From Candidatus Omnitrophota bacterium (GTDB lineage Bacteria; Omnitrophota; Gorgyraeia; Zapsychrales; Fredricksoniimonadaceae): 64,000 nt of DNA. The translations under genes were made by a program, and so were the position numbers. Where the stretch lies: positions 5,468-69,467 of the forward strand of contig CAIVRE010000015.1 of the NCBI GenBank assembly GCA_903908245.1, given 5' to 3'. Below the pieces are notes generated by a model that was given only the letters and a program-made list of their open reading frames with translations, was not told the DNA's origin and did not search any database. Below are positions 13,529 to 59,178 of this stretch, one piece after another (within the stretch, counting starts at the first letter, position 1; every line of letters begins with the position of its first letter).

Positions 13529-16189
13529 ATGAATGCTGGCGGTTATCCTTCCAAACAGGGGCTTTATGACCCTCAATTTGAACATGATGCGTGCGGTGTC
13601 GGCTTTGTGGCGGATATCAAAGGCCGCAAGTCCCATGAGATCGTCCGTCAGGGCATCAGTATCCTTGAGAACCTGGCGCATCGCGGCGCGTGCGGCTGCG
13701 ACCCTTTAACAGGGGACGGCGCGGGTATTTTACTGCAGATGCCGGACCAGTTCCTGCGCAAGGCCGCGAAAGCCGAAGGTTTCGTGCTTCCGGCGCCGGG
13801 GGATTATGCCTGCGGGATGGTCTTTCTTCCCGTTGAGCCTCAGTCGCGCAATATCATCGAGGAGTGGGTCGAGCAGATCATTCATGAGGAAGGCCAGCAG
13901 TTCCTGGGTTGGCGCGCCATCCCCCACGATGACAGGCATGTCGGCCGGGTCGCCCATTCGGTACAGCCGGAATTGAGGCAGATCTTTATCGGCCGCGGCG
14001 CGGATACGAAACCCGAGGAATTCGAGCGTAAATTATATGTCCTGCGCAAGCGTTGCTGGACGAAAGTCCACACGTCCACGGTGCATGACCGCAGTTATTT
14101 TTATATTTGCAGCCTGTCGTCAAAGACGATCGTTTATAAAGGCCAGTTCATGGCCGAACAGCTGGGGCCGTTCTTTTCCGACCTTTCCGACCCCGATATG
14201 ATCTCGGCGCTCGCGCTGGTCCATTCGCGTTACAGCACGAATACTTTTCCGACCTGGTCCTTGGCGCATCCTTACCGCCTGCTGGCGCATAACGGCGAGA
14301 TCAACACCCTGCGCGGCAACCTGAACTGGATGCGTGCGCGCGAAGCGCAAATGGCCAATCAGTTGTTCGGCAAGGACGTGAAGAAGATCTATCCGATCGT
14401 CGGCCCATTCGGGAGCGATTCGGCATCGTTCGATAACGCGCTGGAGCTCCTGGTCATGGCCGGACGTTCCTTGCCCCACGCGGTCCTGATGATGGTCCCT
14501 GAAGCCTGGGTGGGCGATGAGGCGATCAGCGCGGAAAAGCGCGCGTTCTATGAATATCATGCCCTGTTGATGGAGCCATGGGACGGCCCGGCGTGCATCG
14601 CGTTCACGGATGGCAGTTATATCGGGGCGGTCCTGGACCGCAACGGGCTTCGTCCGTCGAGATATACGGTCACCAAAGACGGCCTGGTCGTAATGGCGTC
14701 CGAGACGGGGGTCCTTCCGATCGCGCCGGAACGGGTGGCGAAGAAAGGCCGCTTACAGCCCGGGAAGATGTTCTTGATCGATACGGTCGGGGGCCGGATC
14801 ATCGATGACAAGGAGATCAAGGAGACATATGCCCGGCGCAAGCCTTACGGGCAGTGGCTCAAGGATAATATTGTCGATCTGAAGGATTTGCCGGAGCCCA
14901 GGAAGGTTTCGGGGCTGAATGAAAAAACACTCATGGAGCGCCAGCGTGCGTTCGGCTATACGCAGGAAGACCTCAAGATCGTCCTGAAAGCCATGGTCGA
15001 GAACGGGGAAGAGGCGACAGGATCCATGGGGGCGGATAACCCGGTCGCGGTGCTGTCCGGCCGTTCACAGCTCTTCTTCAATTATTTTAAACAGCTTTTT
15101 GCCCAGGTCACCAATCCGCCGGTTGATCCCATCCGTGAAGAGGTCGTGATGGCGGAAAATGTCTATCTTGGCTCCGAAGGCAATATCCTGGCGGAAACGC
15201 CCGATCATGCCCGCCGTTTGCGGCTGGCTCGGCCGATTCTGACCAACAGGGAGCTGGAACAGATCGCGCATGTGAACATGTCCGGATTGAAAAGCGCAAC
15301 GTTCCCGATCGTTTTCCGCAAGGCCGATGGCCCCGGCGGGCTGGCCAAGGCGATGGACGAGCTGTTCGTCCGCGTGGACAAGGCGATCGCGGAGGGCGTT
15401 AATATCCTGGTCCTTTCCGACCGCGAGATGGGCGCGAAGAGCGTGGCCATCCCGTCGTTGCTGGCGTGCGCGGGACTGCACCATCATTTGATCCGCAAGG
15501 GAACGCGCACCAAAGTGTCCCTTGTCCTTGAAACGGGCGAGGCGCGTGAAATGCACCATTTCGCGGTCCTGATCGGTTACGGCGCGAACGCGGTCAATCC
15601 GTACCTTGCGCTGGAAACGATCGAAAGCGAAGTGAACAAGGGGAATTTCAAAGGGCCTGATCTGGACTGGCATCACGCGGAGAAGAATTATATCAAGGCC
15701 ACGCGCAAGGGCTTGTTCAAGATCATTTCCAAGATGGGGATCTCGACCATCCAGTCGTATTGCGGCGCGCAGATCTTCGAGGCTGTCGGGCTTGGCAAGG
15801 AGCTGATCGAAAAGTATTTTACCGCCACGCCGTCGCGGATCGGCGGGATCGAGATCGGGACCGTTGCCGAGGAATCCCTGCTCCGTCACGCGCAGGGGTA
15901 TCCTGATGCCGGGCCGGAAGAGCACCTGCTCGATGAAGGCGGCTGGTACCACTGGCGCAAAGACGGGGAATACCATCAGATCAACCCCGAGGTCATTGCG
16001 ACGCTGCAGCAGGCGGTGCGTGCGAACGATTATCAGCTGTTCAAGAAATTCAGCAAGACCGTCAATGAGGCCGACCGGACCATTCCCAATATCCGCGGCC
16101 TGATGCAGTTCAAAAAAGGCGCGGCTATTCCCTTATCCGAGGTTGAACCGGCCTCCGAGATCGTGAAGCGTTTTGCGACCGGGCGATGA
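13529..16189 (+). CDS. gltB: Glutamate synthase large subunit GltB, N-terminal part (Ntn-amidotransferase and central domains). Interrupted by an apparent 1-nt frameshift
   Basis: Starts [30 protein letters not shown] (Cys1 nucleophile). Ends ...VKRFATGR*, exactly where intact GltB reads FATGAMSYGS. Confidence 0.8.
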
Positions 16190-18060
16190 GCTACGGTTCC
16201 ATTTCCAAGGAAGCGCATGAGACGATGGCCATTGCCATGAACCGCCTGGGCGGTTTTTCCAACACCGGTGAAGGCGGGGAAGACCCCTTGCGGTTTAAAA
16301 AGGATGCTAACGGTGATGTCCGCCGCAGCCGCATCAAACAGGTGGCGCAGGGGCGGTTCGGTGTCAACATTGAATACCTGGTCAATTCTGACCAGATGCA
16401 GATCAAGATGGCGCAGGGGGCCAAGCCCGGCGAGGGCGGCCAGCTTCCCGGCCACAAGGTCACGCAGGAGATCGCAAAGACCCGCGGCACAACGGCAGGC
16501 GTCCAGCTGATCTCGCCGCCGCCGCATCATGATATTTATTCGATCGAGGACCTGGCCCAGCTGATCCATGACCTGAAGAACGCCAATCCGCAGGCGGATG
16601 TGAGCGTGAAGCTTGTGTCCGAGATCGGCGTGGGGACGGTCGCGGCCGGCGTGTCCAAGGGCAAGTCCGACCATGTTCTGATCTCGGGTTATGACGGCGG
16701 TACGGGGGCGTCCCCGCAGACGTCTATCAAGCATGCCGGCCTTCCGATGGAGCTCGGCCTTGCCGAGACCCAGCAGGTCCTGGTCATGAACGATCTGCGC
16801 GGGCGTATCCGCGTGCAGGCGGACGGCCAGCTCAAGACGGGGCGGGACGTGGTCATTACGGCGATGCTTGGCGCGGATGAGTTCGGGTTTTCCACTATTG
16901 TACTGGTTACGCTCGGGTGCGTCATGTTGCGCAAATGCCATCTGGATGCCTGTTCGGTCGGCATTGCGACCCAGGATCCGCAGCTGCGCGCGAATTTTGC
17001 CGGCAAGCCGGAGTATGTGGTGAGTTTCTTCACGTTCCTGGCCGAGGAGATCCGCGAGTTGATGGCTGAACTGGGTTTCCGGAAGTTCGAGGACATGGTC
17101 GGCCGCGTGGATATGCTGGAAGCCAAGGATGTCATCAGCCACTGGAAATTGAAGGGGATCGACCTTGCGAATATCCTGCATCGGGTGGATGTTCCCAAAG
17201 AGGTCCCTATTCATCATTGTTTGAAGCAGGAGCATGGCCTGGAGAAGGCGCTGGATAATGAGCTTATCGTAAAATGCCGGGACGCTGTCGAAAACAAAAC
17301 GCCGGTGCGCTTTTCGTCCGCGGTCAGGAATGTCAATCGTACTGTCGGGACGATGCTCAGCTCCACGATCGCCCGCCGTTACGGGATGGCCGGACTTCCG
17401 GAAGGGACCATTCACATCGATTTTACGGGTTCGGGCGGGCAGAGTTTCGGGGCGTTCCTTTCCAGGGGTGTCACCTTTGAACTGGAAGGCGATGCCAACG
17501 ATTATGTCGGCAAGGGGTTGTCCGGCGGCCGGATCATTGTGTATCCGTCGAAAAAGGCTTCGCTGGTGGCGGAAGACAACATCCTTATCGGCAATGTGGT
17601 CCTTTACGGGGCGATCGCCGGCGAGGCGTATTTTCGCGGGATCGCCGGCGAACGTTTTTGCGTGCGTAATTCGGGCGGGCACGCCGTTGTGGAGGGAGTG
17701 GGGGACCACGGTTGTGAATATATGACGGGCGGACGGGTCGCAGTCCTTGGAGGCACGGGGCGTAATTTTGCGGCGGGGATGTCCGGCGGCATTGCGTATG
17801 TCCTGGATGCGGACGGGACGTTCGCCAGCCGCTGCAATATGGGGATGGTGGACCTCTTTCCCGTTTTGGACGCTTCCGATGTTGCGGAGCTTAGGGGCAT
17901 GATCGAACGCCATCAAAAGCATACGCAAAGTGTTGTTGCCGGGAACATCCTTGAGCATTGGGATATAACGCTGCCGCGGTTCGTGAAGGTTTATCCTCGC
18001 GATTTCCGCAAGGCGGTAGAAAAAGCGCAACAGGCCGCAGTGCCGGCCGGCAAGGGATAA
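16186..18060 (+). CDS. gltB: Glutamate synthase large subunit GltB, C-terminal part (FMN-binding and GXGXG domains). Continuation after the frameshift
   Basis: Begins [23 protein letters not shown]..., the conserved FMN-domain sequence, in the -1 frame relative to the upstream part. The two parts total ~1510 aa, matching full-length GltB. Confidence 0.8.
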
Positions 18061-31615: not shown

Positions 31616-31680
31616 CGCAAATCTCCTTTATATGGTATATTTTATTTGTAAGATCGTATTAAACGGAACGGTGATCTTCT

Positions 31681-33078
31681 ATGCGTGATCGCGGGCAAGT
31701 GCTTCTTGAGTATCTTCTTTTGCTGGGACTGGTGGCGGTCCTGGCGCTGGCGTCGTTCAAACCGGGCGGTATTATCAGCCAGACGGGGACAAGCGCTAAT
31801 ACTTATTTTAAAACCGGTCAACGCGCGATCCTGGGCGGGTATGTTGACGCGTCGGGTAAACAGGTGATGGAAGACCCGGCGCCTATCCATGGAGGCTGGT
31901 GCGATTTCTCCTCATGTATTAACGGGGTCAAGGTCAGGGAATGTGCCTGTCCAAGGCCGGCCTTCGGCGGGACAGAGTGTGTGGGGGATGCGGTTATTCC
32001 TGCGGATTGTTCAGGAGGCGGCAATGGAGGCGGTTGTACTCCCAGTTGCGCGGGCAAATGCAGCGGGAGCGATGGCTGTACCGGGACCTGTCCGAATAAC
32101 TGTTCCTATCCTCAAACCTGCGGCGGCGGCGGGGTGCCCAATGTTTGCGGGGGCGGGTGCACGCCCAATTGCGCAGGCAAATGCGGCGGGGGTAATGGTT
32201 GTTCCGGGACCTGTCCTGATAATTGTTCATTTCCTCAAAGTTGCGGCGGCGGCGGGGTGCCCAATGTTTGCGGGTGTATCACCAGTTGCGCGGGTAAATG
32301 CGGCGGGAGCGATGGTTGTACCGGGACTTGCCCTGATAATTGCGTGGCTCCTCAAACCTGCGGTGGCAGCGGGACGGCCAATGTCTGCGGGCAATGCGTT
32401 TCTACCGGTTGTGCGGCCGCGGCAACCATTACATGCGGCCTGTCGTATTTTGACAATTGCGGAACATATTGCGGCCTCGGCCAGGATTGCGTGGGGGCGT
32501 GTGGCGTCTGCCCCGATGGTACTCCTTGCAATTTCATCAGTGACTACAAAGATGCCGGCGGTTACGATAATCAATTCACCACATGCCAATGTGGCGCAGG
32601 GTTGAGTTGTTCCGGGCTTACAAAGCCGATCGATCTTTCGGCTTCCATAGCAGGAACCTGGGCCTGTTATTCTTACGCAGGAATGGATCATGCCAGATGC
32701 GGAGCGTCCTGGGTAAAGTGCTTTCCCAGTTGCGTAGGTAAATGCGGAGGCGGGAGCGACGGGTGTATGGGGACCTGTTTCAATGCCTGCACATTGCCTC
32801 AAACCTGCGGCGGCGGCGGGACTCCCAAGGTTTGCGGCTGCACGCCGGTTTGCGCCGGGAAATGCGGCGGCTCGGACAGTTGCGGTTCGACGTGTCCCAA
32901 TAATTGCGTATCACCTCAAACCTGCGGCGGCGGCGGGGTATCCAATGTCTGCGGGTGTACGGCCAATTGCGCGGGCAAGTGCGGAGGATCCAACGGGTGT
33001 TCGGGGACCTGTCCCAACAATTGTGCGGCTCCTAAAACCTGCGGCGGCGGCGGGACGCCCAATGTCTGCGGCCCGTGA
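31681..33078 (+). CDS. Flp/TadE-like (class III prepilin signal) protein carrying six Cys/Gly-rich ~38-aa repeats and a distinct Cys-rich central domain
   Basis: N-terminus MRDRG|QVLLEYLLLLGLVAVLALA matches the Flp/TadE motif G-x4-E-Y after a short basic leader. Then 6 copies of C-x3-CAGKCGG-x-DGC-x-GTCPNNC-x2-PQTCGGGG-x-PNVCG, with 8 Cys per repeat. Confidence 0.65.
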   Translation: MRDRGQVLLEYLLLLGLVAVLALASFKPGGIISQTGTSANTYFKTGQRAILGGYVDASGKQVMEDPAPIHGGWCDFSSCINGVKVRECACPRPAFGGTECVGDAVIPADCSGGGNGGGCTPSCAGKCSGSDGCTGTCPNNCSYPQTCGGGGVPNVCGGGCTPNCAGKCGGGNGCSGTCPDNCSFPQSCGGGGVPNVCGCITSCAGKCGGSDGCTGTCPDNCVAPQTCGGSGTANVCGQCVSTGCAAAATITCGLSYFDNCGTYCGLGQDCVGACGVCPDGTPCNFISDYKDAGGYDNQFTTCQCGAGLSCSGLTKPIDLSASIAGTWACYSYAGMDHARCGASWVKCFPSCVGKCGGGSDGCMGTCFNACTLPQTCGGGGTPKVCGCTPVCAGKCGGSDSCGSTCPNNCVSPQTCGGGGVSNVCGCTANCAGKCGGSNGCSGTCPNNCAAPKTCGGGGTPNVCGP

Positions 33079-33095: not shown

Positions 33096-34034
33096 TTATG
33101 CCCGGTCCGCCTTGCGCTGGTCGCGCACGAAATTGCTGCATTCCTGGGCTTTGGCGAATTTCTTGAGGTCCGCGCCTATCTCGCCGATCTGTGCTACATG
33201 GGAGATCTTCTGGTTGACGTTGGACACGATCCCGAGAGAGATCGTCATCAGCCCTGCCTTGGTCTCATTTCCCTGACGGTCTTTGCCTACGATAAAACCG
33301 GCCCGCCGGTCCTCTTCGCTATAAAAACTGGGAGCGGTCTGGTTGAAGAGCTCGATGAGCCGGCGGCTGACCTGGTCGGCGATCTCGTCAGGGCAGGCGA
33401 ACACAAAGTCGTCCCCTCCGATATGCCCCACGAATACGCGCGCTCCGCCTACTTCCTGCCCGGCCTGGATAATGGTGCGCGCGGTCGCTTTAATAACATC
33501 ATCGCCTTTTTCAAAACCGTATTTATCGTTGTAGATCTTGAATTTGTCCAGGTCGCAGTAGCCGACCGCGAAAGGTTTTCCGGCATTGATAAGGCTTTGC
33601 AATTCTTCCATAATGGACGCGTTGCCCGGTAAATGCGTGAGCGGGTTGGCGTCAAGGTTGCGCACCGTACGCTTGATGATCATGTTGATCTTCGCCAGAA
33701 GGCTTTCGGGTTCGAAGGGTTTTACCAGATAATCGTCCGCACCGGAATTGATGCCGGTGACCAGGTCTTTAATATCGCTTTTTCCGGTGAGCATGATGAT
33801 CGGGACGTGGGAGAGAAGGATGTCCTTGCGCAGTTCACGGCAGAATTCCGGCCCGGTCATGACGGGCATCATATAGTCGGTGATGATCAGGTCGAAATTC
33901 CCCGAACGGGCTTTTTGCAGGCCTTCGGCTCCGTTGTTGGCCTTGGTGACCTCGAATGTGTCCGACAGCGTGAGGTCCAGGACGTCGAGGATGTCGGGAT
34001 TGTCGTCAACGATAAGAATGTTTTGGCGTTTCAT
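33096..34034 (-). CDS. Response regulator with REC domain and GGDEF-type diguanylate cyclase domain (GGDDF variant)
   Basis: N-terminal REC (ILIVDDNPD...DLIITDYMMP...). C-terminal GGDEF fold with HIGGDDFVF. Confidence 0.75.
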   Translation of the reverse strand: MKRQNILIVDDNPDILDVLDLTLSDTFEVTKANNGAEGLQKARSGNFDLIITDYMMPVMTGPEFCRELRKDILLSHVPIIMLTGKSDIKDLVTGINSGADDYLVKPFEPESLLAKINMIIKRTVRNLDANPLTHLPGNASIMEELQSLINAGKPFAVGYCDLDKFKIYNDKYGFEKGDDVIKATARTIIQAGQEVGGARVFVGHIGGDDFVFACPDEIADQVSRRLIELFNQTAPSFYSEEDRRAGFIVGKDRQGNETKAGLMTISLGIVSNVNQKISHVAQIGEIGADLKKFAKAQECSNFVRDQRKADRA

Positions 34035-34050
34035 AGGGTCCTGTTATTGA

Positions 34051-35595
34051 TCAAACGGTTTTAAGTGTGTCCCGGGCCGGATGTTTGAACGGCAGCGTGA
34101 AGTGGAAGGTGGTGCCCGCGCCGACTTCGCTGGAGACCCAGATCTTTCCGCCGTGGGCTTCGACGATGTTCTTGGCGAGTGCCAGCCCGAGCCCCGTCCC
34201 CTTGACGTTCATGTTGATCTCGTTATCGACGCGGTAGAATTCGTCGAAAACCCGCATGAGGTCGTCTTTCTTGATGCCGACACCGGTGTCGGCCACTTCG
34301 CATAAAAGGATGTTCTTGTTCCACTGGGGGATGACATTAATGGTGATGGTCCCCTGGGGAGGCGTGAATTTGATGGCATTGCTGATGAGGTTAATAAAGA
34401 CACGCTCCACCTGGCTGGCGTCAAATTCGACTTCCGGCGCGTCGGCCTGGATCTGCACGCGCAGGGTCAGTGACTTGCTCAAAAGCTGGGGAGTGAGGAG
34501 GTCGGCGATATTGTTGACCATCGGCTGGATCGGCTGCGGGACGGTTTTCATTTCGACCCTTCCGGATTCGATGCGGGCGATATCCAGAAGGTCGTTGATG
34601 AGCTTGACCAGGTTATCGGAATGGGTATTGATCTTGATCAGGCGCTCTTTTACGGCATCCGGGATGACCCCGATCTTTCCCGTGATCAGCAGGGAAGCAT
34701 AGCCCTTGATGGATGTCAGCGGTGTGCGTAATTCGTGAGAGACGGCCGAGATGAATTCGGTCTTTTTTTTGGATATTTCTTCAACGTCCTTGAGCGCGAG
34801 GGAAAGTTCCTTGGTGCGTTCGTTGACCTTGGTCTCGAGCATCTGGGTGGAGCGGTAAACCTGTTCGAACAGGTGCGTGTTCTCGATCGTTTGTGCCAGC
34901 TGGCTGGTGAGGATGCCGATAAGCTCCTCGTCGCCTTCGGTGACCGCGGGCGCGTTGTAGCGGTTGCCGGTGAACATGAACCCGGTGAGGCCCTTTTGGG
35001 TCAGCAGAGGCGCCAGGATAAAGTGTTCGGTCTCAAAGAGGCTCACAATGACCGAGCGGGTTTTTTGTGACGAGCTCAGTGAAGAAAAGACCATCCCGTT
35101 CTTCAGCGCGTTCACCAGGTCGCCGTTGCCGGCGATCTTGGAAAGGGCGGCGTCCGTTTTTCCGGGGTTAAAGTCAATGGCGGCGCGGGCGATGAATTTT
35201 CCATCCTCGGTCATGGAGACGGCCAGCATTCGCGAGAACCCGAGCTCGGCGATCAGCTGGGGGTTGATGCGCTGGAAGGCTTCGTTCTCATCGAGCGAGG
35301 TGCGCATGTTGCGCGCCAGGTTTTGCAGGGTGTTGAGGCCTTTCAGTCGGCGGTCGAGCTCTTCTTGGGCTTTGTTGAGTTCGAGGTCGGTCTTTACAAT
35401 GAGCTTGGCCTGTTCGTCAAGCTCGTTGAAGGAGCCCATGATCTTGTCGTACGCGGCTTTGAGTTCGCGCAGTTCTTCGCTTTTTCCGATCAGCCAATAC
35501 AGCACGATCCCCAGTCCGATCAGCAGGAGCACGCAGATGACGCCCAGGACCGGGGTAAAATCCATTTGGGTTACGGGATAAGCGATGTCTTTCAT
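34051..35595 (-). CDS. Membrane-anchored sensor histidine kinase with GAF-like sensor, HisKA and HATPase_c
   Basis: N-terminal TM, coiled coil, GAF-like region. H-box SAVSHELRTPLTSI. G-boxes DTGVGI...GTGLGLA. Confidence 0.75.
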   Translation of the reverse strand: MKDIAYPVTQMDFTPVLGVICVLLLIGLGIVLYWLIGKSEELRELKAAYDKIMGSFNELDEQAKLIVKTDLELNKAQEELDRRLKGLNTLQNLARNMRTSLDENEAFQRINPQLIAELGFSRMLAVSMTEDGKFIARAAIDFNPGKTDAALSKIAGNGDLVNALKNGMVFSSLSSSQKTRSVIVSLFETEHFILAPLLTQKGLTGFMFTGNRYNAPAVTEGDEELIGILTSQLAQTIENTHLFEQVYRSTQMLETKVNERTKELSLALKDVEEISKKKTEFISAVSHELRTPLTSIKGYASLLITGKIGVIPDAVKERLIKINTHSDNLVKLINDLLDIARIESGRVEMKTVPQPIQPMVNNIADLLTPQLLSKSLTLRVQIQADAPEVEFDASQVERVFINLISNAIKFTPPQGTITINVIPQWNKNILLCEVADTGVGIKKDDLMRVFDEFYRVDNEINMNVKGTGLGLALAKNIVEAHGGKIWVSSEVGAGTTFHFTLPFKHPARDTLKTV

Positions 35596-35608: not shown

Positions 35609-36781
35609 TTATCCAATGGCCGCGATCAGGATGCCCGCGTTATGTGTTTGAAGGTCCATGGATGTTACCGCGCCAAGTTCTCCATAAGTATACATTCCGA
35701 ATACCGGACATGCGAGACCCAAGATCTCTTTTATCTGGCTGATCTCCTGGCCCGCGGACCGGCCGAAAAGTTTCTTTCGTGATAATGAGGCGAATATAAA
35801 AACGAGCTTCGGGTGTTTGCCGTGGAGCTTGTCGTGCACTTCCACGGCCGCGTCGTGCGCGGCCTTCCGGCAGGAGTCTTTATCGCCGATCATCAGGTGT
35901 ACCTGCGTGCCATGCGGGATATCTCCCTGGCAGATCAGGCTGCCGTCGGGGAGGATGCCCGAAGGGCTTTTGATGATGTATTCCTTGGCGCGGGCTGTGC
36001 TCAGGCCGAGCGGGTACAGGAACCCGATGTCCCCCAGCTGCCCGGCGGGGAGGCTGGCCATGTCTTCCGGGAAATATTCCTGGTAAATGGATACGGCGGG
36101 TTTTCCATCGATCGTGCGGATCAGGTTGCTGTTGCTGTCGTCGATGATGCGCGGTTTTCCCAGCGGCTGCCAGCCGTGCCTGATGGCGGCCGCGAATGAT
36201 GTTTTCCCGCCGAAGATGATCCCCCCGATGATATCGGTCAGGAGGTTTTCCTGAAGGAACATCCCTCCGGGATTGATCGCGCCGGCCATGATGAACGCAC
36301 GGCCAAGGCCTTCGTGCAGGCCGCGGATGATCTGGGTATGGTTGAGCGCGAGGGCGTCACAGAAAATGATGGCGCCGTGGCGTTCGCTGTTGGACATTCT
36401 TGAGGCAAGCTCCCGCGCGAGTTTTAGCCCGGTATCCTGCAAAGGCATCAGGGAGAGGGAATTTTCCGCGGCTATCCCGAAGTCAATGTCGTCGGATGAA
36501 ATGGCGAGCACCAGGACACCCTTGTTCTCGATCCCCTTTGTCCAGATCAGGGCAGGGGCCGGGAGGCCGATGAGTTTTTCGGGGTTGAGGACCTTGCGCA
36601 GGCTTTCGAGCGCCTGCAGGGAGTTCGGATGGCCCAGAGCGGTGTAAGACGGGGTGGTGGTAATGACCACAAGGTCGTGTTTTGTCAGGCCCGATTGGGC
36701 CTTGGCCATGACCGCCGCTTCTTTGAAAGCGGTGAGCGGGTCATTTTCCGACGAGAATCCGATGGCGATGGTTGTGCTCAT
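35609..36781 (-). CDS. FIST-domain sensory protein (FIST_N + FIST_C)
   Basis: FIST-like layout. The longest ORF uses a TTG at 36820. ATG at 36781 gives MSTTIAIGFSS..., which looks like the native N-terminus. Neither start has a clear SD. Confidence 0.55.
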   Translation of the reverse strand: MSTTIAIGFSSENDPLTAFKEAAVMAKAQSGLTKHDLVVITTTPSYTALGHPNSLQALESLRKVLNPEKLIGLPAPALIWTKGIENKGVLVLAISSDDIDFGIAAENSLSLMPLQDTGLKLARELASRMSNSERHGAIIFCDALALNHTQIIRGLHEGLGRAFIMAGAINPGGMFLQENLLTDIIGGIIFGGKTSFAAAIRHGWQPLGKPRIIDDSNSNLIRTIDGKPAVSIYQEYFPEDMASLPAGQLGDIGFLYPLGLSTARAKEYIIKSPSGILPDGSLICQGDIPHGTQVHLMIGDKDSCRKAAHDAAVEVHDKLHGKHPKLVFIFASLSRKKLFGRSAGQEISQIKEILGLACPVFGMYTYGELGAVTSMDLQTHNAGILIAAIG

Positions 36782-40706: not shown

Positions 40707-41537
40707 ATGGATACGAACAATAAACTTTTTACGGTCGCGCTGGTCGCGCTGACCGCGGTGGTGGGCGGGTTGGGGGTTGTCTTCTCGGTCGGGATGGCCG
40801 TGCAGTCTTCGACGGCGCCCATGACGGCTGTCCTTCGGGAGATCGCGGATGGCCAAAAGAAGATGGACGTTCTGGTCGCCCAGGCCGGGAAGAATGACAT
40901 TAAGGCCCTTGAGTCCAGGCTGGCCGCGCTGGAGTCGGAAGTAAGGGTCCTGAAGGCCCAGCCTTCGCATGCCGGAATGCCTCAGCAGCCGCAGCCTCCG
41001 GCGGAAGATATGAACAAGGTGTACGATATCCCTGTTGCGGGATCGTATGTGCTCGGGTCAAAAGATGCGCCGGTGACCATTACTGTCTTTGATGATTATC
41101 AGTGCCCGTTCTGCGGCAGGTTCTATCCCGCGGCGGTCGAGGGGCAGAAGGCGTTCCCCGGCAAGGTGAAGATGGTCGTCAAACATTATCCTTTGCCGTT
41201 CCACAAGATGGCCCTTCCGGCGGCCAAAGCGGCGCTGGCGGCTGGCGAGCAGGGCAAGTTCTTTGAAATGTCCGACCTTATTTTTGCCAATGCGGCGGCT
41301 TTGAGTGATGAAAAGTTCAAGGAACTGGCGGGCCAGGCCGGGCTCAATGTTGAAAAGTTCCTTAAAGACCTTAAGGACAGGGATGCGGTCTATGCAAAGG
41401 TCATTGAAGCGGATCTTGACCTGGGCTCTAAAATAGATGTGCGTGGCACGCCGACCTATTTCCTGAACGGGAAAAAATGCAATGCCCGTACGGCGGATGA
41501 TTGGAAGGCCCAGATCGCGGAGCTGCTTAAAAAGTAA
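40707..41537 (+). CDS. Membrane-anchored thiol:disulfide oxidoreductase, DsbA-like
   Basis: N-terminal TM, coiled coil, thioredoxin-fold CPFC active site. Confidence 0.7.
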   Translation: MDTNNKLFTVALVALTAVVGGLGVVFSVGMAVQSSTAPMTAVLREIADGQKKMDVLVAQAGKNDIKALESRLAALESEVRVLKAQPSHAGMPQQPQPPAEDMNKVYDIPVAGSYVLGSKDAPVTITVFDDYQCPFCGRFYPAAVEGQKAFPGKVKMVVKHYPLPFHKMALPAAKAALAAGEQGKFFEMSDLIFANAAALSDEKFKELAGQAGLNVEKFLKDLKDRDAVYAKVIEADLDLGSKIDVRGTPTYFLNGKKCNARTADDWKAQIAELLKK

Positions 41538-43916: not shown

Positions 43917-44575
43917 TGTTATACATCGTCTCCACTCCCATCGGGAATTTGAAGGACATTACGCTGCGCGCGATCGAGGTCCTCAAAAGCGTGGATCTGA
44001 TCGCCGCCGAGGATACCCGTCATACGGGTGTTTTGTGCAAAGAGTATGGCATTACCGCGCCCCTCACCAGTTATTTCGACCATAATGAAAGCGGCAAGGC
44101 CCGCCAGCTGGTGGAGCTGCTCAAAGCGGGAAAGAATATTGCGCTGGTATCAGATGCCGGGACGCCCGGTATTAATGATCCCGGGTATCGCCTGGTGAGC
44201 CTGGCGAAAGCGGAGAATGTCCCGATGGAGGTCATTCCCGGAGCCTGTGCCGTGATCGCGGCGTTGTCGTTGTCGGCCCTTCCGACGGACAGGTTCGCGT
44301 TCTACGGGTTTTTGCCGGTCAAGCCCGGTGCCCGGCGCAAAAGGATCGCGCAGGCCGCCGAGGCGGGAGGGACCGCGATCTTTTATGAGTCACCGCATCG
44401 TTTGCTTAAAGCATTGAAGGATATTGAGGAAGTCTTGAAGGACCCGTCCATTACCGTAGCTCGTGAGCTTACTAAAAAATTCGAGGAGCGCCTGGATGGG
44501 AAAGCCAGCACGCTCCTCGATCATTTTACCCGCCATAAGCCTTTGGGCGAGTTCGTGATATTATTTCATGTTTGA
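43917..44575 (+). CDS. rsmI: 16S rRNA (cytidine1402-2'-O)-methyltransferase
   Basis: MLYIVSTPIGNLKDITLRAIEVLKSVDLIAAEDTR... canonical RsmI. Confidence 0.8.
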
Positions 44576-45364
44576 TGCCGCGGGGGCAGTGGTTTTTTCT
44601 GCCTGATGAACGGGTTTTGTCCCCGTTTTCTTGTCGATTTTACACATCTTTTGTCCCTGTTTCTTTTCCAGTTTATCCAGCCGGGCCGTGAGCACATCGA
44701 TCTGTTTTTGCTGGTCCTTGATCCCCTCGACCAGCAAGCCGACCAACCCGTCGTAGTTGATGCCTCTCATTCCCTTGTTGTCGATCGAAACGACTTCCGG
44801 AACGATCGGCTCCACATCCTGGGCGATGAGGCCCATCCGGACCGTTTTGGGGTCTTGCTTGAAGGCGAATGTAACGCCGTTCATGGCTTTGATCTTCTTT
44901 AGTGCGTCGATGATGGGCTGGATCTTCTCTTTCAAACGCCTGTCTGACGATGTCGTAAAGGCAAGGGCGAAGACTGTCCTGTAAAAGAGACTGTCGATAT
45001 TTTTGACATAAAGATTACCTTGTTGGCGTATGTAGAAGTCACCGGCTCCCGACGGGTCGTAGAGAAAATTGGCATTGCTTCCGCCAAGCCTGAGCGTATC
45101 CCCTGTGATGGTAACGTTCCCGGTCACGAACAGTTTGTCCGTCGGGTTGGAGGTGCCGATGCCGACATTGCCTTCCACGATCAACCGGTCACCGGGGACG
45201 CCGGTGGTGGTATAAGTGGTCCCGACCGATAATTTGGCGTAGTTCCCTGCCGGGGCGGGGTAATTGGATGTCAGGGTGACCGTGCCGGCGGCAAGCCCGG
45301 AGCGGGGACAACAGAGCAAGGACAGGCCAAGGATCGCTAAAGTGAGAACGGGCAGTGGTTTCAT
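44561..45364 (-). CDS. Secreted protein with tail-fibre-like beta-rich N-terminal region and peptidase S74 (intramolecular chaperone of endosialidase/tail fibre) C-terminal domain plus coiled coil
   Basis: Signal peptide MKPLPVLTLAILGLSLLC. Motif SDRRLKEKIQPI...NGVTFAFKQD...GLIAQDVEPIVPEVV typical of S74 auto-processing chaperone domains. Confidence 0.55.
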   Translation of the reverse strand: MKPLPVLTLAILGLSLLCCPRSGLAAGTVTLTSNYPAPAGNYAKLSVGTTYTTTGVPGDRLIVEGNVGIGTSNPTDKLFVTGNVTITGDTLRLGGSNANFLYDPSGAGDFYIRQQGNLYVKNIDSLFYRTVFALAFTTSSDRRLKEKIQPIIDALKKIKAMNGVTFAFKQDPKTVRMGLIAQDVEPIVPEVVSIDNKGMRGINYDGLVGLLVEGIKDQQKQIDVLTARLDKLEKKQGQKMCKIDKKTGTKPVHQAEKTTAPAASNMK

Positions 45365-51833: not shown

Positions 51834-51907
51834 GGGCGGTTAGCTCAGTTGGTTAGAGCAGTTGATTTACATTCAACAGGCCACAGGTTCGAGCCCTGTA
51901 CTGCCCA
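51834..51907 (+). tRNA. tRNA-Val (anticodon TAC), no encoded CCA
   Basis: GGGCGGTTAGCTCAGTTGGTTAGAGCAGTTGATTTACATTCAACAGGCCACAGGTTCGAGCCCTGTACTGCCCA. Anticodon loop TTTACAT. Confidence 0.85.
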
Positions 51908-51995: not shown

Positions 51996-52073
51996 GGGGT
52001 GGTGGTGTAGTTTGGTTAACATATCAGCTTGTCACGCTGGAGATCGCGGGTTCAAGTCCCGTCCACCCCGCCA
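51996..52073 (+). tRNA. tRNA-Asp (anticodon GTC), CCA encoded
   Basis: Acceptor GGGGTGG/CCACCCC, anticodon loop TTGTCAC, T-arm GCGGG-TTCAAGT-CCCGT. Confidence 0.8.
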
Positions 52074-52075
52074 TT

Positions 52076-52114
52076 AAACAAGAAAGCCCGCTTTTTCAGC
52101 GGGCTTTCTTGTTT
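52076..52114 (+). terminator. Long hairpin terminator after the tRNA pair
   Basis: AAACAAGAAAGCCCGC-tttttca-GCGGGCTTTCTTGTTT, a 16-bp perfect stem. Confidence 0.5.
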
Positions 52115-52304
52115 AATGGCCGACCCGAAGGGAGCGAAGCGACCGGAGGGCGCCAAGTCTCCTGCCGAGCCAGAGCTTCCTCATATTTTGGGTGTGCAAA
52201 AGTGAAAAGAATTGATAATATATTTGTAAAGAGGCAACAGGTTTTTAACGATCGGCCCAGTCATCAGGCCAGAGATCCGGGTATTTTTGTTTTAAGGAAT
52301 AACC

Positions 52305-53597
52305 ATGAAGAATGAAACTGAAAAAGCACTCGTTAAAGCGGTAAAACTTTTGCAAGAACAGCTATTAGCAAAAGATATTGAAAGCCAGAAGGCCGAGCAA
52401 AAGATCCAGAAAGCTCGCGAATATGCCGAGAGTATCGTAGAGACAGTGCGCGTGCCTTTAATAGTGTTGAGTCACAAGCTCAGGGTGATCTCTGCCAATC
52501 AATCGTTCTATCGGGTTTTTAAAGTTTCTCCTCAGGAAACTGTAGGAGAATTTATTTATGATCTGGGAAATCGGCAGTGGAATATTCCCGGGCTGCGGCA
52601 TCTTTTGGAGAAGATCCTTCCTGATAATAAATTCTTCGAGGACTATGAGATCAGTCATGATTTCAAGGCCATCGGGCCCAGGGACATGCTTCTTAATGCC
52701 CGCCGCCTTGATAGCGTGCAGATGATCCTTCTGAGTATTGAGGATATTACGGATCGCAAGAAGAGCGAAAATAAATTGAGAAATTCAGAGATCAAATATA
52801 AGGCGTTATTTATGGGTGCGCCCGATGGGATGCTCGCGGTGAGAACACAAACGAAGCAGATCATTTACGCTAATCCGGCTGCCTGCAGGATGTTCGGATA
52901 CGCGGAAGAAGAGTTTGTGCAAAAAAGAGTTATGGATCTTCATCCAAAAAAGTTTATGAGTTATGTTTTGGCCTGTTTCAAGGCAGAGAAGAAGGACGTT
53001 AATCGTGTATTAACAAACCTTGCATGCCTGCGCCAGGACGGCAGCGTGTTTTATGTCGACGTCAGCTGGATCAATATCATTTTAGATGGCGAGGATTGCA
53101 TCTTGGGCATTTTTAATGATATCACCCAGCGTATGCAGGCGCAGGAGGCATTAAGAAGGTCTGAAAAAGAGCTAAAAGACGACAAGGTGCTTTTGGTACA
53201 AAAGAATTTGGCTTTAAAGGAATTGCTGGAACATATGGAGAGGGAAAAAGACAGGATGAGAGAAGATGTTGCGATCAACGTGGAAGAATTCATAGAACCG
53301 ATCCTGAAGAAACTGGCGATCAAGGGCGTTTCGCCCAAATATCTTGAATTGCTCGAGCAGCATTTGAAGGAACTGACATTGTCTTTTGGCCGCAAGATAA
53401 CCAACAGACGCGAGCGATTAACATCTCGCGAGATCGAGATCAGCAGCATGATCAAAGGCAACCTTACCAGTAAGGATATTGCCGGGCTTTTGAATGTTTC
53501 TTGCCAGACAATAGAAAAACACCGCAAAAATATCCGAAAGAAAATGGGCCTGTCGAACAAAAAGGCCAACCTTGCCTCATATCTTCAGAAGATCTGA
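52305..53597 (+). CDS. PAS-PAS-LuxR family transcriptional regulator
   Basis: Two PAS-like regions and C-terminal HTH LTSREIEISSMIKGNLTSKDIAGLLNVSCQTIEKHRKNIRKKMGL (LuxR/GerE type). Confidence 0.7.
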   Translation: MKNETEKALVKAVKLLQEQLLAKDIESQKAEQKIQKAREYAESIVETVRVPLIVLSHKLRVISANQSFYRVFKVSPQETVGEFIYDLGNRQWNIPGLRHLLEKILPDNKFFEDYEISHDFKAIGPRDMLLNARRLDSVQMILLSIEDITDRKKSENKLRNSEIKYKALFMGAPDGMLAVRTQTKQIIYANPAACRMFGYAEEEFVQKRVMDLHPKKFMSYVLACFKAEKKDVNRVLTNLACLRQDGSVFYVDVSWINIILDGEDCILGIFNDITQRMQAQEALRRSEKELKDDKVLLVQKNLALKELLEHMEREKDRMREDVAINVEEFIEPILKKLAIKGVSPKYLELLEQHLKELTLSFGRKITNRRERLTSREIEISSMIKGNLTSKDIAGLLNVSCQTIEKHRKNIRKKMGLSNKKANLASYLQKI

Positions 53598-53634
53598 TCT
53601 TTTCGACCAGCCCTTTATAAGCTCCCCCTGAAGG

Positions 53635-53657
53635 AATGGGTATATTCTATACCCATT
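53635..53657. promoter_or_regulatory. Perfect 10-bp palindrome AATGGGTATA-ttc-TATACCCATT plus a downstream half-site, a candidate operator
   Basis: Seen directly. Additional TACCCATT half-site 4 nt downstream. Confidence 0.35.
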
Positions 53658-53739
53658 TGATACCCATTAATGCCCTATAGCATCGGTTACAATGCAGGGA
53701 TACAATTTGGACATATAGGAAGTGAGTGTCTGATATCGC

Positions 53740-54039: not shown

Positions 54040-54058
54040 AAGAATTAGAGAAGGCGTG

Positions 54059-55886
<1,828 letters not shown>

Positions 55887-55909
<23 letters not shown>

Positions 55910-56333: not shown

Positions 56334-56400
56334 AAGAAGGCATCAAAGGGGCAAAGTATCCGAGTTGACAGGCGGGATCTTTGGGAGAGAAGGAGGTTTT

Positions 56401-57309: not shown

Positions 57310-57338
57310 ATGCCGGGCAAATTCAGGAAGAAGGTCTT

Positions 57339-59141: not shown

Positions 59142-59178
59142 TTTTACAGATCGGGATCGCTAACGCAGGTGTTTTGTC

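What the first reader, a model, noticed from the sequence alone, without database searches (positions are those of the whole stretch)
31681..33078. Giant Flp/TadE-type prepilin-like protein with six Cys/Gly-rich 38-aa repeats (48 Cys in repeats, ~70 in total)
The N-terminus MRDRGQVLLEYLLLLGLVAVLALA fits the class-III (type IVb/Flp-TadE) signal: short basic leader, Gly cleavage site, Glu at +5, Tyr at +6, hydrophobic stretch. Flp pilins are normally 50-80 aa and TadE/F pseudopilins 150-300 aa with unrelated globular domains. Here the signal is joined to ~440 aa made of six near-identical repeats C-x3-CAGKCGG-x-DGC-x-GTCPNNC-x2-PQTCGGGG-x-PNVCG (8 Cys each), split by a separate ~110-aa Cys-rich domain. 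I cannot place the repeat in any family I know (it is unlike the Myxococcus cysteine-rich repeat, metallothioneins or EGF). A disulfide-knotted or metal-binding module on a pilin-like anchor is a candidate new surface-filament, adhesin or metal-binding protein. No tad/pil assembly genes lie in this window.
Basis: partly seen in the sequence, partly recalled or inferred. Interest (0 to 1): 0.78.

Follow-up and report, generated by a model that had tools for sequence, protein, structure and literature searches.

The report
Pilin-like protein with cysteine-rich stalk
This gene from an uncultured Omnitrophota bacterium encodes a pilus-subunit-like anchor capped by a thrombospondin-type adhesion domain and extended by a cysteine-rich stalk; it is one member of a large, unstudied family whose outer part differs in almost every species while the gene keeps the same place in the genome.

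Summary
The ORF is real: 31681..33078 (+), 465 aa, 68 Cys. It has six 39-41-aa repeats with 8 Cys each, split by a 109-aa orphan Cys-rich domain.

About 100 clusters share [RK][GA]|Q-x-x-L-E-Y plus a hydrophobic helix. Leader length varies from 4 to 46 residues. Many relatives match Pfam Class_IIIsignal, and sources call some "Flp pilin" or "class III signal peptide-containing protein".

- Residues ~66-110 are a thrombospondin type-1 (TSR)-like domain. With the pilin-like helix it forms a conserved ~105-aa module.
- The gene sits in a fixed slot in Omnitrophota: rpe upstream in 59/66 loci, a convergent REC-GGDEF/kinase/FIST cluster downstream in 46/46. Orthologues range from 72 to 1573 aa, mostly with Cys-rich, Pfam-dark extensions.
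- The 39-aa repeat is not unique. It occurs in at least 96 other proteins, mostly Myxococcota-like lipoproteins, but in no other member of this family examined.

No pilus-assembly gene lies near any orthologue, so processing and polymerisation are inferred, not shown.

Best reading: a modular Flp-like pilin that acts as an adhesin. This is a new variant of a known kind, of moderate interest.

The parts
31631..31642 (+). Conserved promoter-like element TATGGTATATTT (an extended -10-like TGnTATATT), 38 nt upstream of the ATG
   Evidence: The pattern TATGKTATATTT occurs once in the 64-kb window, against 0.00 expected. It also occurs once each in L006, L007 and L010, always just upstream of the orthologue. 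Its function as a promoter is inferred.
31681..31695 (+). Predicted leader peptide MRDRG (residues 1-5). The proposed prepilin-peptidase cut is between G5 and Q6.
   Evidence: Sequence. In the family, position -1 is G or A and -2 is R or K in 64 of 92, and leader length varies from 4 to 46 residues. The motif screen required G/A/S/N at -1. Cleavage is inferred, not shown.
31696..31833 (+). Pilin-like alpha-1 helix, residues 6-51. It comprises the QVLLEY motif (E at +5, Y at +6), a hydrophobic half (residues 6-25), a break at P28-G-G and an amphipathic half (residues 31-51).
31876..32010 (+). TSR-like (thrombospondin type-1-like) head, residues ~66-110, with W73 C74, R86 x C88 A C90 P91 x P A F G G97 x x C100 and 6 Cys in all
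   Evidence: The family profile matches TSR domains of UNC5B (E 1.3e-5), thrombospondin-1 (1e-4), UNC5A/D and ADAMTS13 at profile positions 63-106. The same profile region matches proteins carrying 15-28 Pfam TSP_1 domains. TSP_1 scores 19.1 bits on the isolated module, below the 21.6 cut-off. The top Foldseek hits are TSP-1 TSRs, but they are not significant.
32011..32034 (+). Gly-rich linker SGGGNGGG (residues 111-118)
   Evidence: Sequence.
32035..32391 (+). Cys-rich repeats 1-3 (residues 119-237), consensus CTPxCxGKCGGxDGCGGTCxxxCxxPQTCGGGGxxNVCG, 8 Cys per unit
   Evidence: One unit (residues 147-187) is missing from a 424-aa variant found in another sample.
32392..32718 (+). Orphan Cys-rich middle domain (residues 238-346, 14 Cys). 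To my eye its first ~45 residues look like a degenerate relative of the repeat.
   Evidence: No homologue among the retrieved proteins. No Pfam hit and no significant PDB hit.
32719..33078 (+). Cys-rich repeats 4-6 (residues 347-465) plus the stop codon
30899..31615 (+). rpe (ribulose-phosphate 3-epimerase), the conserved upstream neighbour
   Evidence: Pfam Ribul_P_3_epim. It lies directly upstream of the orthologue in 59 of 66 loci.
33096..34034 (-). Response regulator with a GGDEF domain (motif GGDDF). It is convergent, 17 nt from the stop of the pilin-like gene.
   Evidence: Pfam Response_reg + GGDEF. It lies on the opposite strand downstream in 46 of 46 loci, within 200 nt of the stop in 44 of 46.
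34051..35595 (-). Histidine kinase with HisKA and HATPase_c domains, and what reads as a single N-terminal hydrophobic helix with no periplasmic domain
35609..36781 (-). FIST/FIST_C sensor-domain protein, the third gene of the conserved convergent cluster

Best explanation
The gene encodes a modular, Flp-like (class III signal) pilin of an Omnitrophota bacterium. The proposed mechanism has six steps.

1. The gene is transcribed from its own extended -10-type promoter.
2. The protein inserts into the inner membrane by its N-terminal hydrophobic helix.
3. A prepilin peptidase of the TadV/CpaA/EppA kind removes the 5-residue leader MRDRG, between G5 and Q6.
4. The 68 cysteines form about 34 intradomain disulfides in the periplasm. 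Every module has an even Cys count.
5. A type IV filament machine encoded elsewhere extracts the helix from the membrane. It places the subunit in or at the tip of a filament.
6. The TSR-like head is then displayed outward. So are the rod of six disulfide-knotted 39-aa repeats and the orphan middle domain. Together they act as an adhesin or ligand-recognition module.

A likely candidate for the machine in step 5 is the Tad/T2SS-like locus reported as conserved across Omnitrophota.

The outer part evolves fast. Orthologues in the same genomic slot range from 72 to 1573 aa with unrelated Cys-rich extensions. That fits recognition of variable partners, such as prey, host or surface.

**Shown:** the architecture, family membership, the fixed slot and the variability. 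**Inferred:** cleavage, disulfides, assembly and adhesion.
For: **N-terminal motif and its conservation**
- About 92 cluster representatives share the motif. G/A at -1, Q at +1, E at +5 and Y at +6 were required by the screen.
- Positions the screen did not constrain are also strongly conserved: L+8 in 84 of 92, V+13 in 83 of 92 and F+21 in 70 of 92.
- The leader varies from 4 to 46 residues. A variable leader before a conserved helix is the pattern of a cleaved prepilin leader, not of a Sec signal.

**Database matches and names**
- Pfam Class_IIIsignal matches 38 of 59 N-modules (best E 9.7e-7) and 30 of 40 long members. N_methyl matches none.
- JGI names four relatives 'Flp pilus assembly pilin Flp'. 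NCBI names one 'class III signal peptide-containing protein [Ca. Omnitrophica]'.

**Size range in the slot**
- Flp-sized orthologues of 72 and 91 aa, lacking the TSR, occupy the same slot.

**Structure**
- The AlphaFold model has mean pLDDT 80.8. It shows a ~50-residue helix broken at P28 followed by a small head.
- The best non-TSR PDB matches of the helix are the Caulobacter Tad pilin PilA and an Flp pilin. These are weak, at E 0.12-0.17.

**TSR head:**

**The same combination elsewhere**
- P0042, P0053, P0065 and P0091 carry the Cys repeat on N_methyl-type pilin N-termini.
- P0124 is an N_methyl pilin with 15 TSP_1 domains.
- L005 has an adjacent protein with a TadE-like N-terminus plus Cys repeats and a TSR.

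**Literature**
- Modular pilins that present a grafted adhesion module are established (PMC8179133).
- Omnitrophota commonly encode T4aP and Tad systems (PMC10066038).
- They also have a phylum-wide secretion locus with many small class III-signal genes (bioRxiv 10.1101/2023.11.21.568195).

**Other**
- A DsbA-like gene lies in the window at 40707-41537.
Against: - The window protein itself scores below the Pfam thresholds. Class_IIIsignal gives 16.5-19.1 bits against 23.7. Flp_Fap, TadE and N_methyl give no hit.
- No prepilin peptidase, assembly ATPase, platform protein or secretin gene lies in the 64-kb window.
- No GxTGSGK[ST]T ATPase motif occurs in the 856 kb of window plus fetched loci. 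Flp genes normally head a tad locus.
- A 460-residue mature subunit is far larger than any known Flp pilin. It would be sterically awkward as a major subunit.
- The rest of this genome could not be searched, so the cognate machine is assumed from reports on the phylum.
- The fold of the repeat was not predicted, so 'rigid disulfide rod' is inference from Cys spacing and parity.
- Adhesion is argued only by analogy with TSR domains and modular pilins.
Confidence: 0.55

Rival explanations
1. The protein is a class III-signal surface protein that is processed but not polymerised. A prepilin peptidase cuts it, and it then stays anchored or loosely assembled at the cell surface. It would act as a binding or receptor protein rather than a filament subunit. 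Archaeal sugar-binding proteins with class III signals do this (my own knowledge, not checked here).
For: - No assembly genes lie near any of 46 or more orthologues.
- There is one such gene in each fixed slot (two adjacent pilin-like genes in L005, and apparently one or more extra genes in L018 and L068/L069).
- Sizes up to 1573 aa are unusual for pilins.
- The motif Q-x-S-x-E-x-x-x-L is that of Pfam PF04021, an archaeal family.
Against: - Flp-sized (72-110 aa) orthologues, which are little more than the assembly helix, occupy the same slot. Such small proteins make poor stand-alone receptors.
- The hydrophobic helix is conserved far more strongly than a mere membrane anchor would need.
Confidence: 0.2
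2. The N-terminus is an ordinary Sec signal peptide or an uncleaved signal-anchor. For example it could be cleaved after A-L-A24 by signal peptidase I. The protein would then be a generic secreted or membrane-tethered Cys-rich exoprotein.
For: - The N-terminus has a basic n-region, a hydrophobic core and an A-x-A site at residues 22-24.
- Most other proteins with this repeat have Sec or lipoprotein-type N-termini.
- The Pfam scores are below threshold.
Against: - The charged Glu, with Tyr next to it, sits inside the hydrophobic core in every family representative (a residue the screen required). Unselected positions nearby are also highly conserved, and the leader length varies. Sec signals show neither a core acidic residue nor this conservation.
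- The A-x-A site is not conserved in the family.
- Relatives pass Class_IIIsignal.
Confidence: 0.1
3. The protein is a membrane partner of the adjacent signalling cluster. The pilin-like helix would be sensed within the membrane by the neighbouring single-helix histidine kinase, as PilA is sensed by PilS in Pseudomonas (my own knowledge). This would couple surface contact or the subunit pool to c-di-GMP synthesis by the REC-GGDEF protein. This reading can coexist with the pilin reading.
For: - The convergent REC-GGDEF/kinase/FIST cluster abuts the gene in 46 of 46 loci, and 44 of 46 within 200 nt. This holds across orthologues only 35-60% identical, while the flanks beyond the block vary.
- The kinase sequence shows one N-terminal hydrophobic helix and no periplasmic sensor domain.
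Against: - The genes are convergent, not co-transcribed.
- The whole carA-carB-purF-pyrG-rpe stretch upstream is also conserved. Adjacency may therefore only reflect a frozen core region.
- There is no direct evidence of interaction.
Confidence: 0.1
4. The protein binds metals in a metallothionein-like way, with the repeats chelating metal ions through free thiolates.
For: - High Cys content: 8 invariant Cys per 39 aa.
Against: - The extracytoplasmic targeting signal, the even Cys count in every module and a DsbA-like gene nearby all favour disulfides.
- The protein has only 2 His, which rules out a run of CxxCH haem motifs.
- There is no match to any metal-binding family.
- In other proteins the repeat sits as a spacer between a lipoprotein signal and enzymatic or binding domains.
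Confidence: 0.05

Closest known systems
Modular type IV pilins (for example Streptococcus sanguinis PilB, with a vWA module, and PilC, with a lectin module; PMC8179133)
   Same: A small N-terminal pilin module with a class III signal is joined by a short linker to bulky extra modules that present an adhesion function. Domains better known from eukaryotic matrix proteins are used: vWA there, TSR here.
   Different: - Those pilins were defined by the N_methyl motif (IPR012902, G|FTLxE). Here the motif is G|QxxLEY, and N_methyl matches 0 of 59 relatives.
- The extra modules here are a TSR-like head plus Pfam-dark Cys-rich repeats.
- The gene lies in no pilus locus.
- No experimental evidence exists for this protein.
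Flp pilins of Tad (type IVc) pili (Aggregatibacter Flp1, Caulobacter PilA; Pfam PF04964)
   Same: - It has the G-x4-E-Y 'Flp motif' followed by a hydrophobic helix.
- The shortest orthologues are Flp-sized, at 72-91 aa.
- JGI annotates four relatives as Flp.
- There are weak profile matches to PDB Tad pilins.
   Different: - The mature protein is about 460 aa, against about 45-60 aa for Flp.
- Position +1 is Q rather than A or V.
- PF04964 does not match this protein and matches only 2 of 59 relatives.
- The gene is never next to tad genes.
Archaeal class III signal peptide proteins (Pfam PF04021/DUF361, motif QxSxExxxL; substrates of the EppA-type peptidase, from my own knowledge)
   Same: This is the best-matching Pfam family. 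Q at +1, E at +5 and L at +9 are kept in the window protein and in most of the family. S at +3 occurs in about a third of the family but is L in the window protein.
   Different: - The host is a bacterium (Omnitrophota).
- The window protein scores below the gathering threshold.
- The helix is followed by a TSR-like domain rather than an archaeal pilin head.
Thrombospondin type-1 repeat (TSR, Pfam PF00090) adhesion domains
   Same: It has the W...C...R-x-C...P-x-P-x-x-G-G-x-x-C pattern, 6 Cys and about 45-50 residues. The family profile matches solved TSRs at E 1e-5 to 1e-3. NCBI names the relative P0006 'thrombospondin type-1 domain-containing protein'.
   Different: It is shortened, lacking the CSxTCG hairpin, and has a single Trp. 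It scores 19.1 bits, below the Pfam cut-off of 21.6. It is fused directly to a pilin-like helix.
Unnamed Cys-rich 39-45-aa repeat of Myxococcota/Bradymonadia-like lipoproteins and exoproteins
   Same: The consensus is the same: CTPxCxGKCGGxDGCGGTCxxxCxxPQTCGGGGxxNVCG. Identity to the window's units reaches about 80%.
   Different: In those proteins, 1-7 copies sit between a Sec or lipoprotein signal and FGE-sulfatase, DUF1566, Kelch, RCC1 or metallophosphatase domains. Here six copies make up most of a pilin-like protein. No other member of the Omnitrophota family examined has this repeat.

Membership tests
Type IV filament pilins (class III signal peptide) | Short, mostly hydrophilic leader ending in Gly or Ala | tested here: met
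   The leader is MRDRG, then Q6. In the family, -1 is G in 70 and A in 22 of 92, and -2 is R or K in 64 of 92. The screen required G/A/S/N at -1.
Type IV filament pilins (class III signal peptide) | Glu at +5, followed by about 20 hydrophobic residues that form the N-terminal half of a long alpha-helix | tested here: met
   E10 is at +5. Residues 7-25 are hydrophobic. AlphaFold gives helices 2-25 and 31-51 at pLDDT 73-95. E at +5 holds in all 92 representatives, though the screen required it.
Type IV filament pilins (class III signal peptide) | Cleavage by a dedicated prepilin peptidase (Peptidase_A24) encoded in the genome | not testable with these tools
   Only 64 kb of the genome is held, and it has no such gene. 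The presence of such systems is known for the phylum only from the literature (PMC10066038; 10.1101/2023.11.21.568195).
Type IV filament pilins (class III signal peptide) | Polymerisation into a filament by an ATPase/platform machine | not testable with these tools
   No assembly ATPase motif occurs in the 856 kb of window plus fetched loci. This needs an experiment or a whole-genome search.
Pfam PF04021 Class_IIIsignal | Score at or above the gathering threshold (23.7 bits), with the motif QxSxExxxL | tested here: inconclusive
   The window protein scores 16.5 bits whole and 19.1 bits for the isolated module, both below threshold. Of its relatives, 38 of 59 match at E<=0.01 (best 9.7e-7), and many carry a precomputed PF04021 hit. 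The motif is kept here as Q-x-x-x-E-x-x-x-L.
Flp/Fap pilins (Pfam PF04964; Tad pili) | G-x4-E-Y 'Flp motif' | tested here: met
   The sequence reads G5-QVLL-E10-Y11. Y at +6 is found in 91 of 92 representatives, a position the screen restricted to Y/F/W/M/L.
Flp/Fap pilins (Pfam PF04964; Tad pili) | Match to the PF04964 profile | tested here: not met
   There is no hit for the window protein even at E<=10. Only 2 of 59 relatives match weakly, and one (P0323) has a precomputed hit.
Flp/Fap pilins (Pfam PF04964; Tad pili) | Small mature size (about 45-80 aa) and a gene inside or next to a tad locus | tested here: not met
   The mature protein is about 460 aa. The gene is never next to tad genes in 46 or more loci. 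Orthologues of 72-110 aa do exist.
TadE/TadF pseudopilins (Pfam PF07811) | Match to the TadE N-terminal profile (G/A-x4-E-F) | tested here: not met
   There is no hit for the window protein, and only 1 of 59 relatives matches. A different, adjacent gene in L005 scores 15.3 bits, below threshold.
Bacterial type IVa/T2SS pilins (Pfam PF07963 N_methyl / IPR012902) | G|[FM]-T-L-[IV]-E N-methylation motif | tested here: not met
   None of 59 family members matches. Position +1 is Q.
Modular pilins (as defined in PMC8179133) | An N-terminal pilin module, a linker, and one or more extra non-pilus domains | tested here: met
   The architecture is helix + TSR head (residues 1-110), a Gly linker (111-118), then 347 aa of Cys-rich modules. 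The published census used IPR012902, which this protein lacks.
Thrombospondin type-1 repeat (Pfam PF00090) | Match to the TSR profile, with 6 Cys and the W / R-x-C / P-x-P-x-x-GG-x-x-C pattern | tested here: inconclusive
   TSP_1 scores 19.1 bits against a cut-off of 21.6 on the isolated module. The family profile matches solved TSRs at E 1.3e-5 to 4e-3 and multi-TSP_1 proteins. Foldseek puts TSP-1 TSRs on top, but at E 0.6-1.1.
Myxococcus cysteine-rich repeat (as I recall, TIGR02232 and Pfam DUF4215) and other named Cys-rich repeats | Match to the family profile | tested here: not met
   No Pfam or NCBIfam family matches the repeats, whether scanned whole, as arrays or as single units, even at E<=10. 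No PDB relative is found with a 50-sequence profile.

The most novel reading that the evidence does not exclude
This family could be the main subunit of an Omnitrophota-specific Tad/archaeal-type filament. Every subunit would carry a TSR head and a species-specific, disulfide-knotted extension, giving a 'bottle-brush' pilus. That extension would be the prey, host or surface recognition determinant of these putatively predatory or symbiotic nanobacteria. The membrane pool or assembly state of the subunit would be read by the invariably adjacent single-helix kinase / REC-GGDEF / FIST cluster, to set c-di-GMP levels.
Probability: 0.12. Interest if true: 0.75.

Novelty: new variant of a known kind. 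Interest (0 to 1): 0.45.

Why it matters
- Omnitrophota are uncultured, ultra-small and probably predatory or symbiotic bacteria. How they recognise and attach to partners is unknown.
- This gene family offers a concrete candidate. It has a conserved pilin-like anchor with a eukaryote-type adhesion domain (TSR). Its outer, cysteine-rich part is rebuilt in almost every species while the gene keeps one genomic address.
- The family extends the 'modular pilin' idea from N-methyl-type pilins to Flp/archaeal-type class III signals.
- It shows that TSR domains are used on bacterial pilin scaffolds.
- It points to a widespread Cys-rich repeat that has no model in Pfam or NCBIfam, shared with Myxococcota.
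- The strict adjacency to a c-di-GMP two-component cluster gives a testable link between a surface appendage and signalling.

Tried and rejected
1. **Direct family scans of the whole protein.** Pfam gave only a sub-threshold Class_IIIsignal hit and a spurious 14-residue SH3_9 fragment. NCBIfam gave nothing.
2. **PDB sequence search with the whole protein.** Only chance hits to antibody light chains, E about 0.1.
3. **First AlphaFold run, with 13 sequences.** Mean pLDDT was 63 and the head was unreliable. It was repeated with 59 sequences.
5. **Repeat profile and middle domain against the PDB and Pfam.** Nothing significant. The best hits were a conotoxin at E 0.11 and a PilA chain at E 0.27, both read as chance.
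6. **GTDB genome scan.** Only one locus was returned, a Lujinxingiaceae protein sharing the repeats. The source genome is not a species representative, so its tad/pil genes could not be sought.
7. **Supplements of the Omnitrophota paper,** searched for the relative's assembly accession. No entry.
8. **Full-text search for the peptide motifs DGCGG, CGGGG and GKCGG.** Only DNA strings were returned.
9. **Consensus promoter/terminator scan.** No -35/-10 promoter and no convincing terminator. The conserved extended -10-like 12-mer was found by comparing orthologous loci instead.
10. **Horizontal-transfer test by composition.** GC3 of the gene is 0.59, lower than the 0.71 +/- 0.04 of its neighbours, and its Gly codon usage is the same. 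This gives no sign of recent import from high-GC Myxococcota, and it does not settle the repeat's origin.
11. **Metal-binding or haem reading.** Rejected. The protein has only 2 His, the Cys counts are even, and it is targeted outside the cytoplasm.
Full report
**1.

An ATG ORF runs from 31681 to 33078 on the + strand and encodes 465 aa. It contains 68 Cys and 98 Gly. A stop codon lies two codons upstream of the ATG. A GGTGATC Shine-Dalgarno-like string sits 6 nt before the ATG. The start, and the 5-residue leader MRDRG, are therefore well defined.

There are six repeat units of 39-41 aa, at residues 119-159, 160-198, 199-237, 347-386, 387-425 and 426-465.
- Each unit carries 8 Cys, 48 in all.
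- They are 65-78% identical in protein and 67-81% in DNA. 'Near-identical' overstates this.
- Tandem Repeats Finder sees both arrays independently.

A 109-aa domain with 14 Cys (residues 238-346) separates the arrays. It has no homologue among the proteins retrieved.

Every module has an even number of Cys: 6, 48 and 14.

The exact protein is on record for nine contigs. Three variants occur in other samples:
- one lacks exactly one repeat unit (residues 147-187, giving 424 aa);
- one has C252G;
- one has C387S.

**2. The organism**

CTP synthase and glutamine synthetase III of the window fall in 90%-identity clusters with proteins of 'Candidatus Omnitrophica/Omnitrophota bacterium'. Every named relative of the N-terminal module comes from the same phylum.

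**3. The N-terminal ~105 residues are the conserved unit**

A search with the whole protein returned two kinds of hit.
- Eight proteins share the first ~110 residues: P0006, P0010, P0012-P0015, P0021 and P0050.
- About 95 proteins share only the repeats.

Searching with the N-terminal part found free-standing versions of 110-161 aa.

A profile of 13 modules was searched against 1.84 billion cluster representatives.
- It gave 405 hits at E<=1e-3 and 156 at E<=1e-10.
- About 92 representatives have the full module at their N-terminus. Their total lengths run from 109 to 1642 aa.
- The remaining strong hits match only profile positions ~60-108, many times over. Pfam shows most of the sampled ones to be multi-TSP_1 proteins with 15-28 domains.

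*3a. The signal.* In the 92 representatives the motif reads as follows:
- -2 is R or K in 64 of 92;
- -1 is G (70) or A (22);
- +1 is Q, +5 is E and +6 is Y;
- 16 hydrophobic residues follow, with strikingly high conservation: L+8 in 84 of 92, V+13 in 83 of 92 and F+21 in 70 of 92.

The Q, E and Y positions were part of the motif screen. The other positions were not.

The leader ahead of the motif varies from 4 to 46 residues, with a mode of 11. A variable leader in front of an invariant cut site and helix is what a cleaved prepilin leader looks like. A Sec signal would not keep an acidic residue in its core or be this conserved.

Pfam results agree:
- Class_IIIsignal matches 38 of 59 modules (best E 9.7e-7) and 30 of 40 long members;
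- Flp_Fap matches 2, TadE 1 and N_methyl none;
- the window protein itself scores 16.5-19.1 bits, below the 23.7 cut-off.

Source annotations of relatives read 'class III signal peptide-containing protein' (NCBI) and 'Flp pilus assembly pilin Flp' (JGI, four proteins).

*3b. The helix.* AlphaFold2 with 59 family sequences gave a mean pLDDT of 80.8.
- It shows helices at residues 2-25 and 31-51, broken at P28-G-G, then a short hairpin and a small head.
- The best non-TSR PDB sequence matches of the family profile are the Caulobacter Tad pilin PilA (8u1k, E 0.12) and an Flp pilin (8u2b, E 0.17). These are weak.

*3c. The head is TSR-like.*
- The family profile matches the TSR domains of UNC5B (E 1.3e-5), thrombospondin-1 (1.1e-4), UNC5A/D and ADAMTS13, all at profile positions 63-106.
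- Pfam TSP_1 scores 19.1 bits on the isolated window module, against a cut-off of 21.6.
- It passes in the relatives P0010 and P0014, through further TSR copies downstream of the module.
- Foldseek ranks thrombospondin-1 TSR crystal structures first, but not significantly.
- NCBI calls P0006 a 'thrombospondin type-1 domain-containing protein'.

**4. A fixed genomic slot with a hypervariable gene**

The arrangement rpe -> family gene -> <- REC-GGDEF <- histidine kinase <- FIST is seen in the window and in every orthologous locus looked up by exact protein. Those are L005-L008 and L010-L014, plus L015 and L016, which are near-duplicates of L014.

A metagenome scan with the module alignment brought 67 further loci. 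Taken together with the earlier loci:
- rpe lies within 260 nt upstream in 59 of 66 loci with enough upstream sequence;
- a REC-GGDEF gene lies on the opposite strand downstream in 46 of 46 loci with a complete ORF and at least 1 kb of downstream sequence;
- its alignment begins within 200 nt of the stop codon in 44 of those 46.

Complete ORFs in the slot range from 94 to 1573 aa. Two TSR-less versions of 72 and 91 aa occupy the same slot.

Extensions beyond residue 110 have a median of 14.8% Cys. Pfam recognises almost nothing in them.

None of these other members carries the window's 39-aa repeat.

A 12-mer, TATG[GT]TATATTT, lies 38 nt upstream of the ATG.
- It resembles an extended -10 element.
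- It is unique in the window, against 0.00 expected.
- It recurs upstream of the orthologues in L006, L007 and L010, and variants occur in L008 and L011.

**5. The repeat**

The consensus is CTPxCxGKCGGxDGCGGTCxxxCxxPQTCGGGGxxNVCG.
- An HMM of the six units finds 269 instances in 96 of the retrieved proteins.
- Most of those have Sec or lipoprotein-like N-termini. The repeats lie between the signal and domains such as FGE-sulfatase, DUF1566, Kelch, RCC1 or metallophosphatase.
- Named sources are Bradymonadaceae, Polyangiaceae, Myxococcales, 'Deltaproteobacteria' and Corallococcus. The one GTDB hit is a Lujinxingiaceae MAG.
- Four carriers have classical N_methyl-type pilin N-termini: P0042, P0053, P0065 and P0091.
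- No Pfam, NCBIfam or PDB family matches the repeat.

The repeat therefore has no model in the libraries I could search, but it is widespread. Its usual position suggests a disulfide-stabilised spacer or stalk.

Composition gives no sign of recent import. GC3 is 0.59 against 0.71 +/- 0.04 in neighbouring genes, and Gly codon usage is the same.

**6. What could not be shown**

- No prepilin peptidase or assembly gene lies in the window.
- No GxTGSGK[ST]T ATPase motif occurs in the 856 kb of window plus fetched loci.

The literature reports the following for the phylum:
- T4aP genes in nearly all Omnitrophota genomes and Tad genes in many of them (PMC10066038);
- a phylum-wide secretion locus (gspD/E/F, rcpC) accompanied by many small class III-signal genes (bioRxiv 10.1101/2023.11.21.568195; echoed in 10.64898/2026.06.07.730766).

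A cognate machine is therefore plausible, but it is inferred.

**7. Interpretation**

The best-supported reading is a modular Flp-like pilin: a pilin-like helix, a TSR head, a Gly linker and a Cys-rich stalk with an orphan domain. It would be processed at G5|Q6, oxidatively folded, and presented on or at the tip of a type IV filament as an adhesin. The outer part would be under rapid diversification.

This matches the 'modular pilin' concept established for S. sanguinis PilB (PMC8179133). It differs in the type of class III motif, in the modules used and in gene location.

The rivals are:
- a processed but non-polymerised surface protein;
- an ordinary Sec signal-anchor;
- a membrane partner of the adjacent kinase/GGDEF cluster, which is compatible with the main reading;
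- metal binding.

**8. Verdict**

The finding is a new variant of a known kind.

- modular pilins are known;
- the repeat is common elsewhere;
- relatives already carry automatic class III/Flp/TSP1 labels.

The fixed slot beside a c-di-GMP cluster and the hypervariable Cys-rich extensions were not mentioned in any of the papers I found and read. They are worth following up.

Noticed in passing
window 13529-18060 (+): The glutamate synthase large subunit appears as two ORFs, 13529..16189 (886 aa) and 16186..18060 (624 aa). They are in different frames and overlap by ATGA. The gene index lists a single 1510-aa product (886 + 624) at this place on the 285-kb contig. This could be a frameshift, a sequencing error or a joined annotation. 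It is unresolved.
   Followed up: no
window 44561-45364 (-): A 267-aa protein matches Pfam Peptidase_S74, the intramolecular chaperone domain of phage tail-spike and endosialidase-type proteins. It sits among housekeeping genes.
   Followed up: no
window 52001-62000: GC content drops from about 0.55 to 0.45-0.49 just after two tRNA genes (Val 51834-51907, Asp 51996-52073). The stretch is packed with PAS, Cache, kinase and response-regulator genes. It may be an acquired signalling island.
   Followed up: no
window 33096-35595 (-): The REC-GGDEF protein carries GGDDF instead of GGDEF/GGEEF. From its sequence, the adjacent kinase has one N-terminal hydrophobic helix and no periplasmic sensor domain. 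Whether the cyclase is active was not examined.
   Followed up: partly
L005 8222-9958 (+): In a related genome a second, 578-aa gene lies between rpe and the family member. It has a TadE-like N-terminus (AQTILEF; PF07811 at 15.3 bits, below threshold). It also carries CxxCxGKxCGxxDGCGG-type repeats and, by eye, TSR-like segments. L018 and L068/L069 likewise have extra sequence between rpe and the gene.
   Followed up: partly
L013 2359-2928 (+): A MamF_MmsF (magnetosome membrane protein) gene lies about 2.5 kb upstream of the 91-aa orthologue in an NCBI MAG (GCA_964373335.1). Some carriers of the family may therefore be magnetotactic Omnitrophota.
   Followed up: no
P0124 (1392 aa; cluster representative, source unknown): A protein with an N_methyl-type pilin N-terminus (GFTLVEV) carries 15 Pfam TSP_1 domains. 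TSR domains have thus been grafted onto pilin scaffolds more than once.
   Followed up: no
window 32119-32241 (residues 147-187); residues 252 and 387: There are population variants in other samples. One is an exact one-unit (41-aa) in-frame deletion. Two are single substitutions that each remove a cysteine (C252G, C387S). These could be real polymorphism, or assembly collapse and sequencing error.
   Followed up: partly
L007 6011-6022; L010 9980-9991: In two orthologous loci the conserved extended -10-like 12-mer ends only 12-17 nt before the annotated ATG. This implies a very short or absent 5' untranslated region.
   Followed up: no
P0120 (185 aa): One relative has the TSR-like head fused behind an unrelated N-terminal region that carries precomputed PF13938/PF04016 hits, in place of the pilin-like helix. 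It sits on an 886-bp contig. It is probably a frameshift or an assembly chimera.
   Followed up: no
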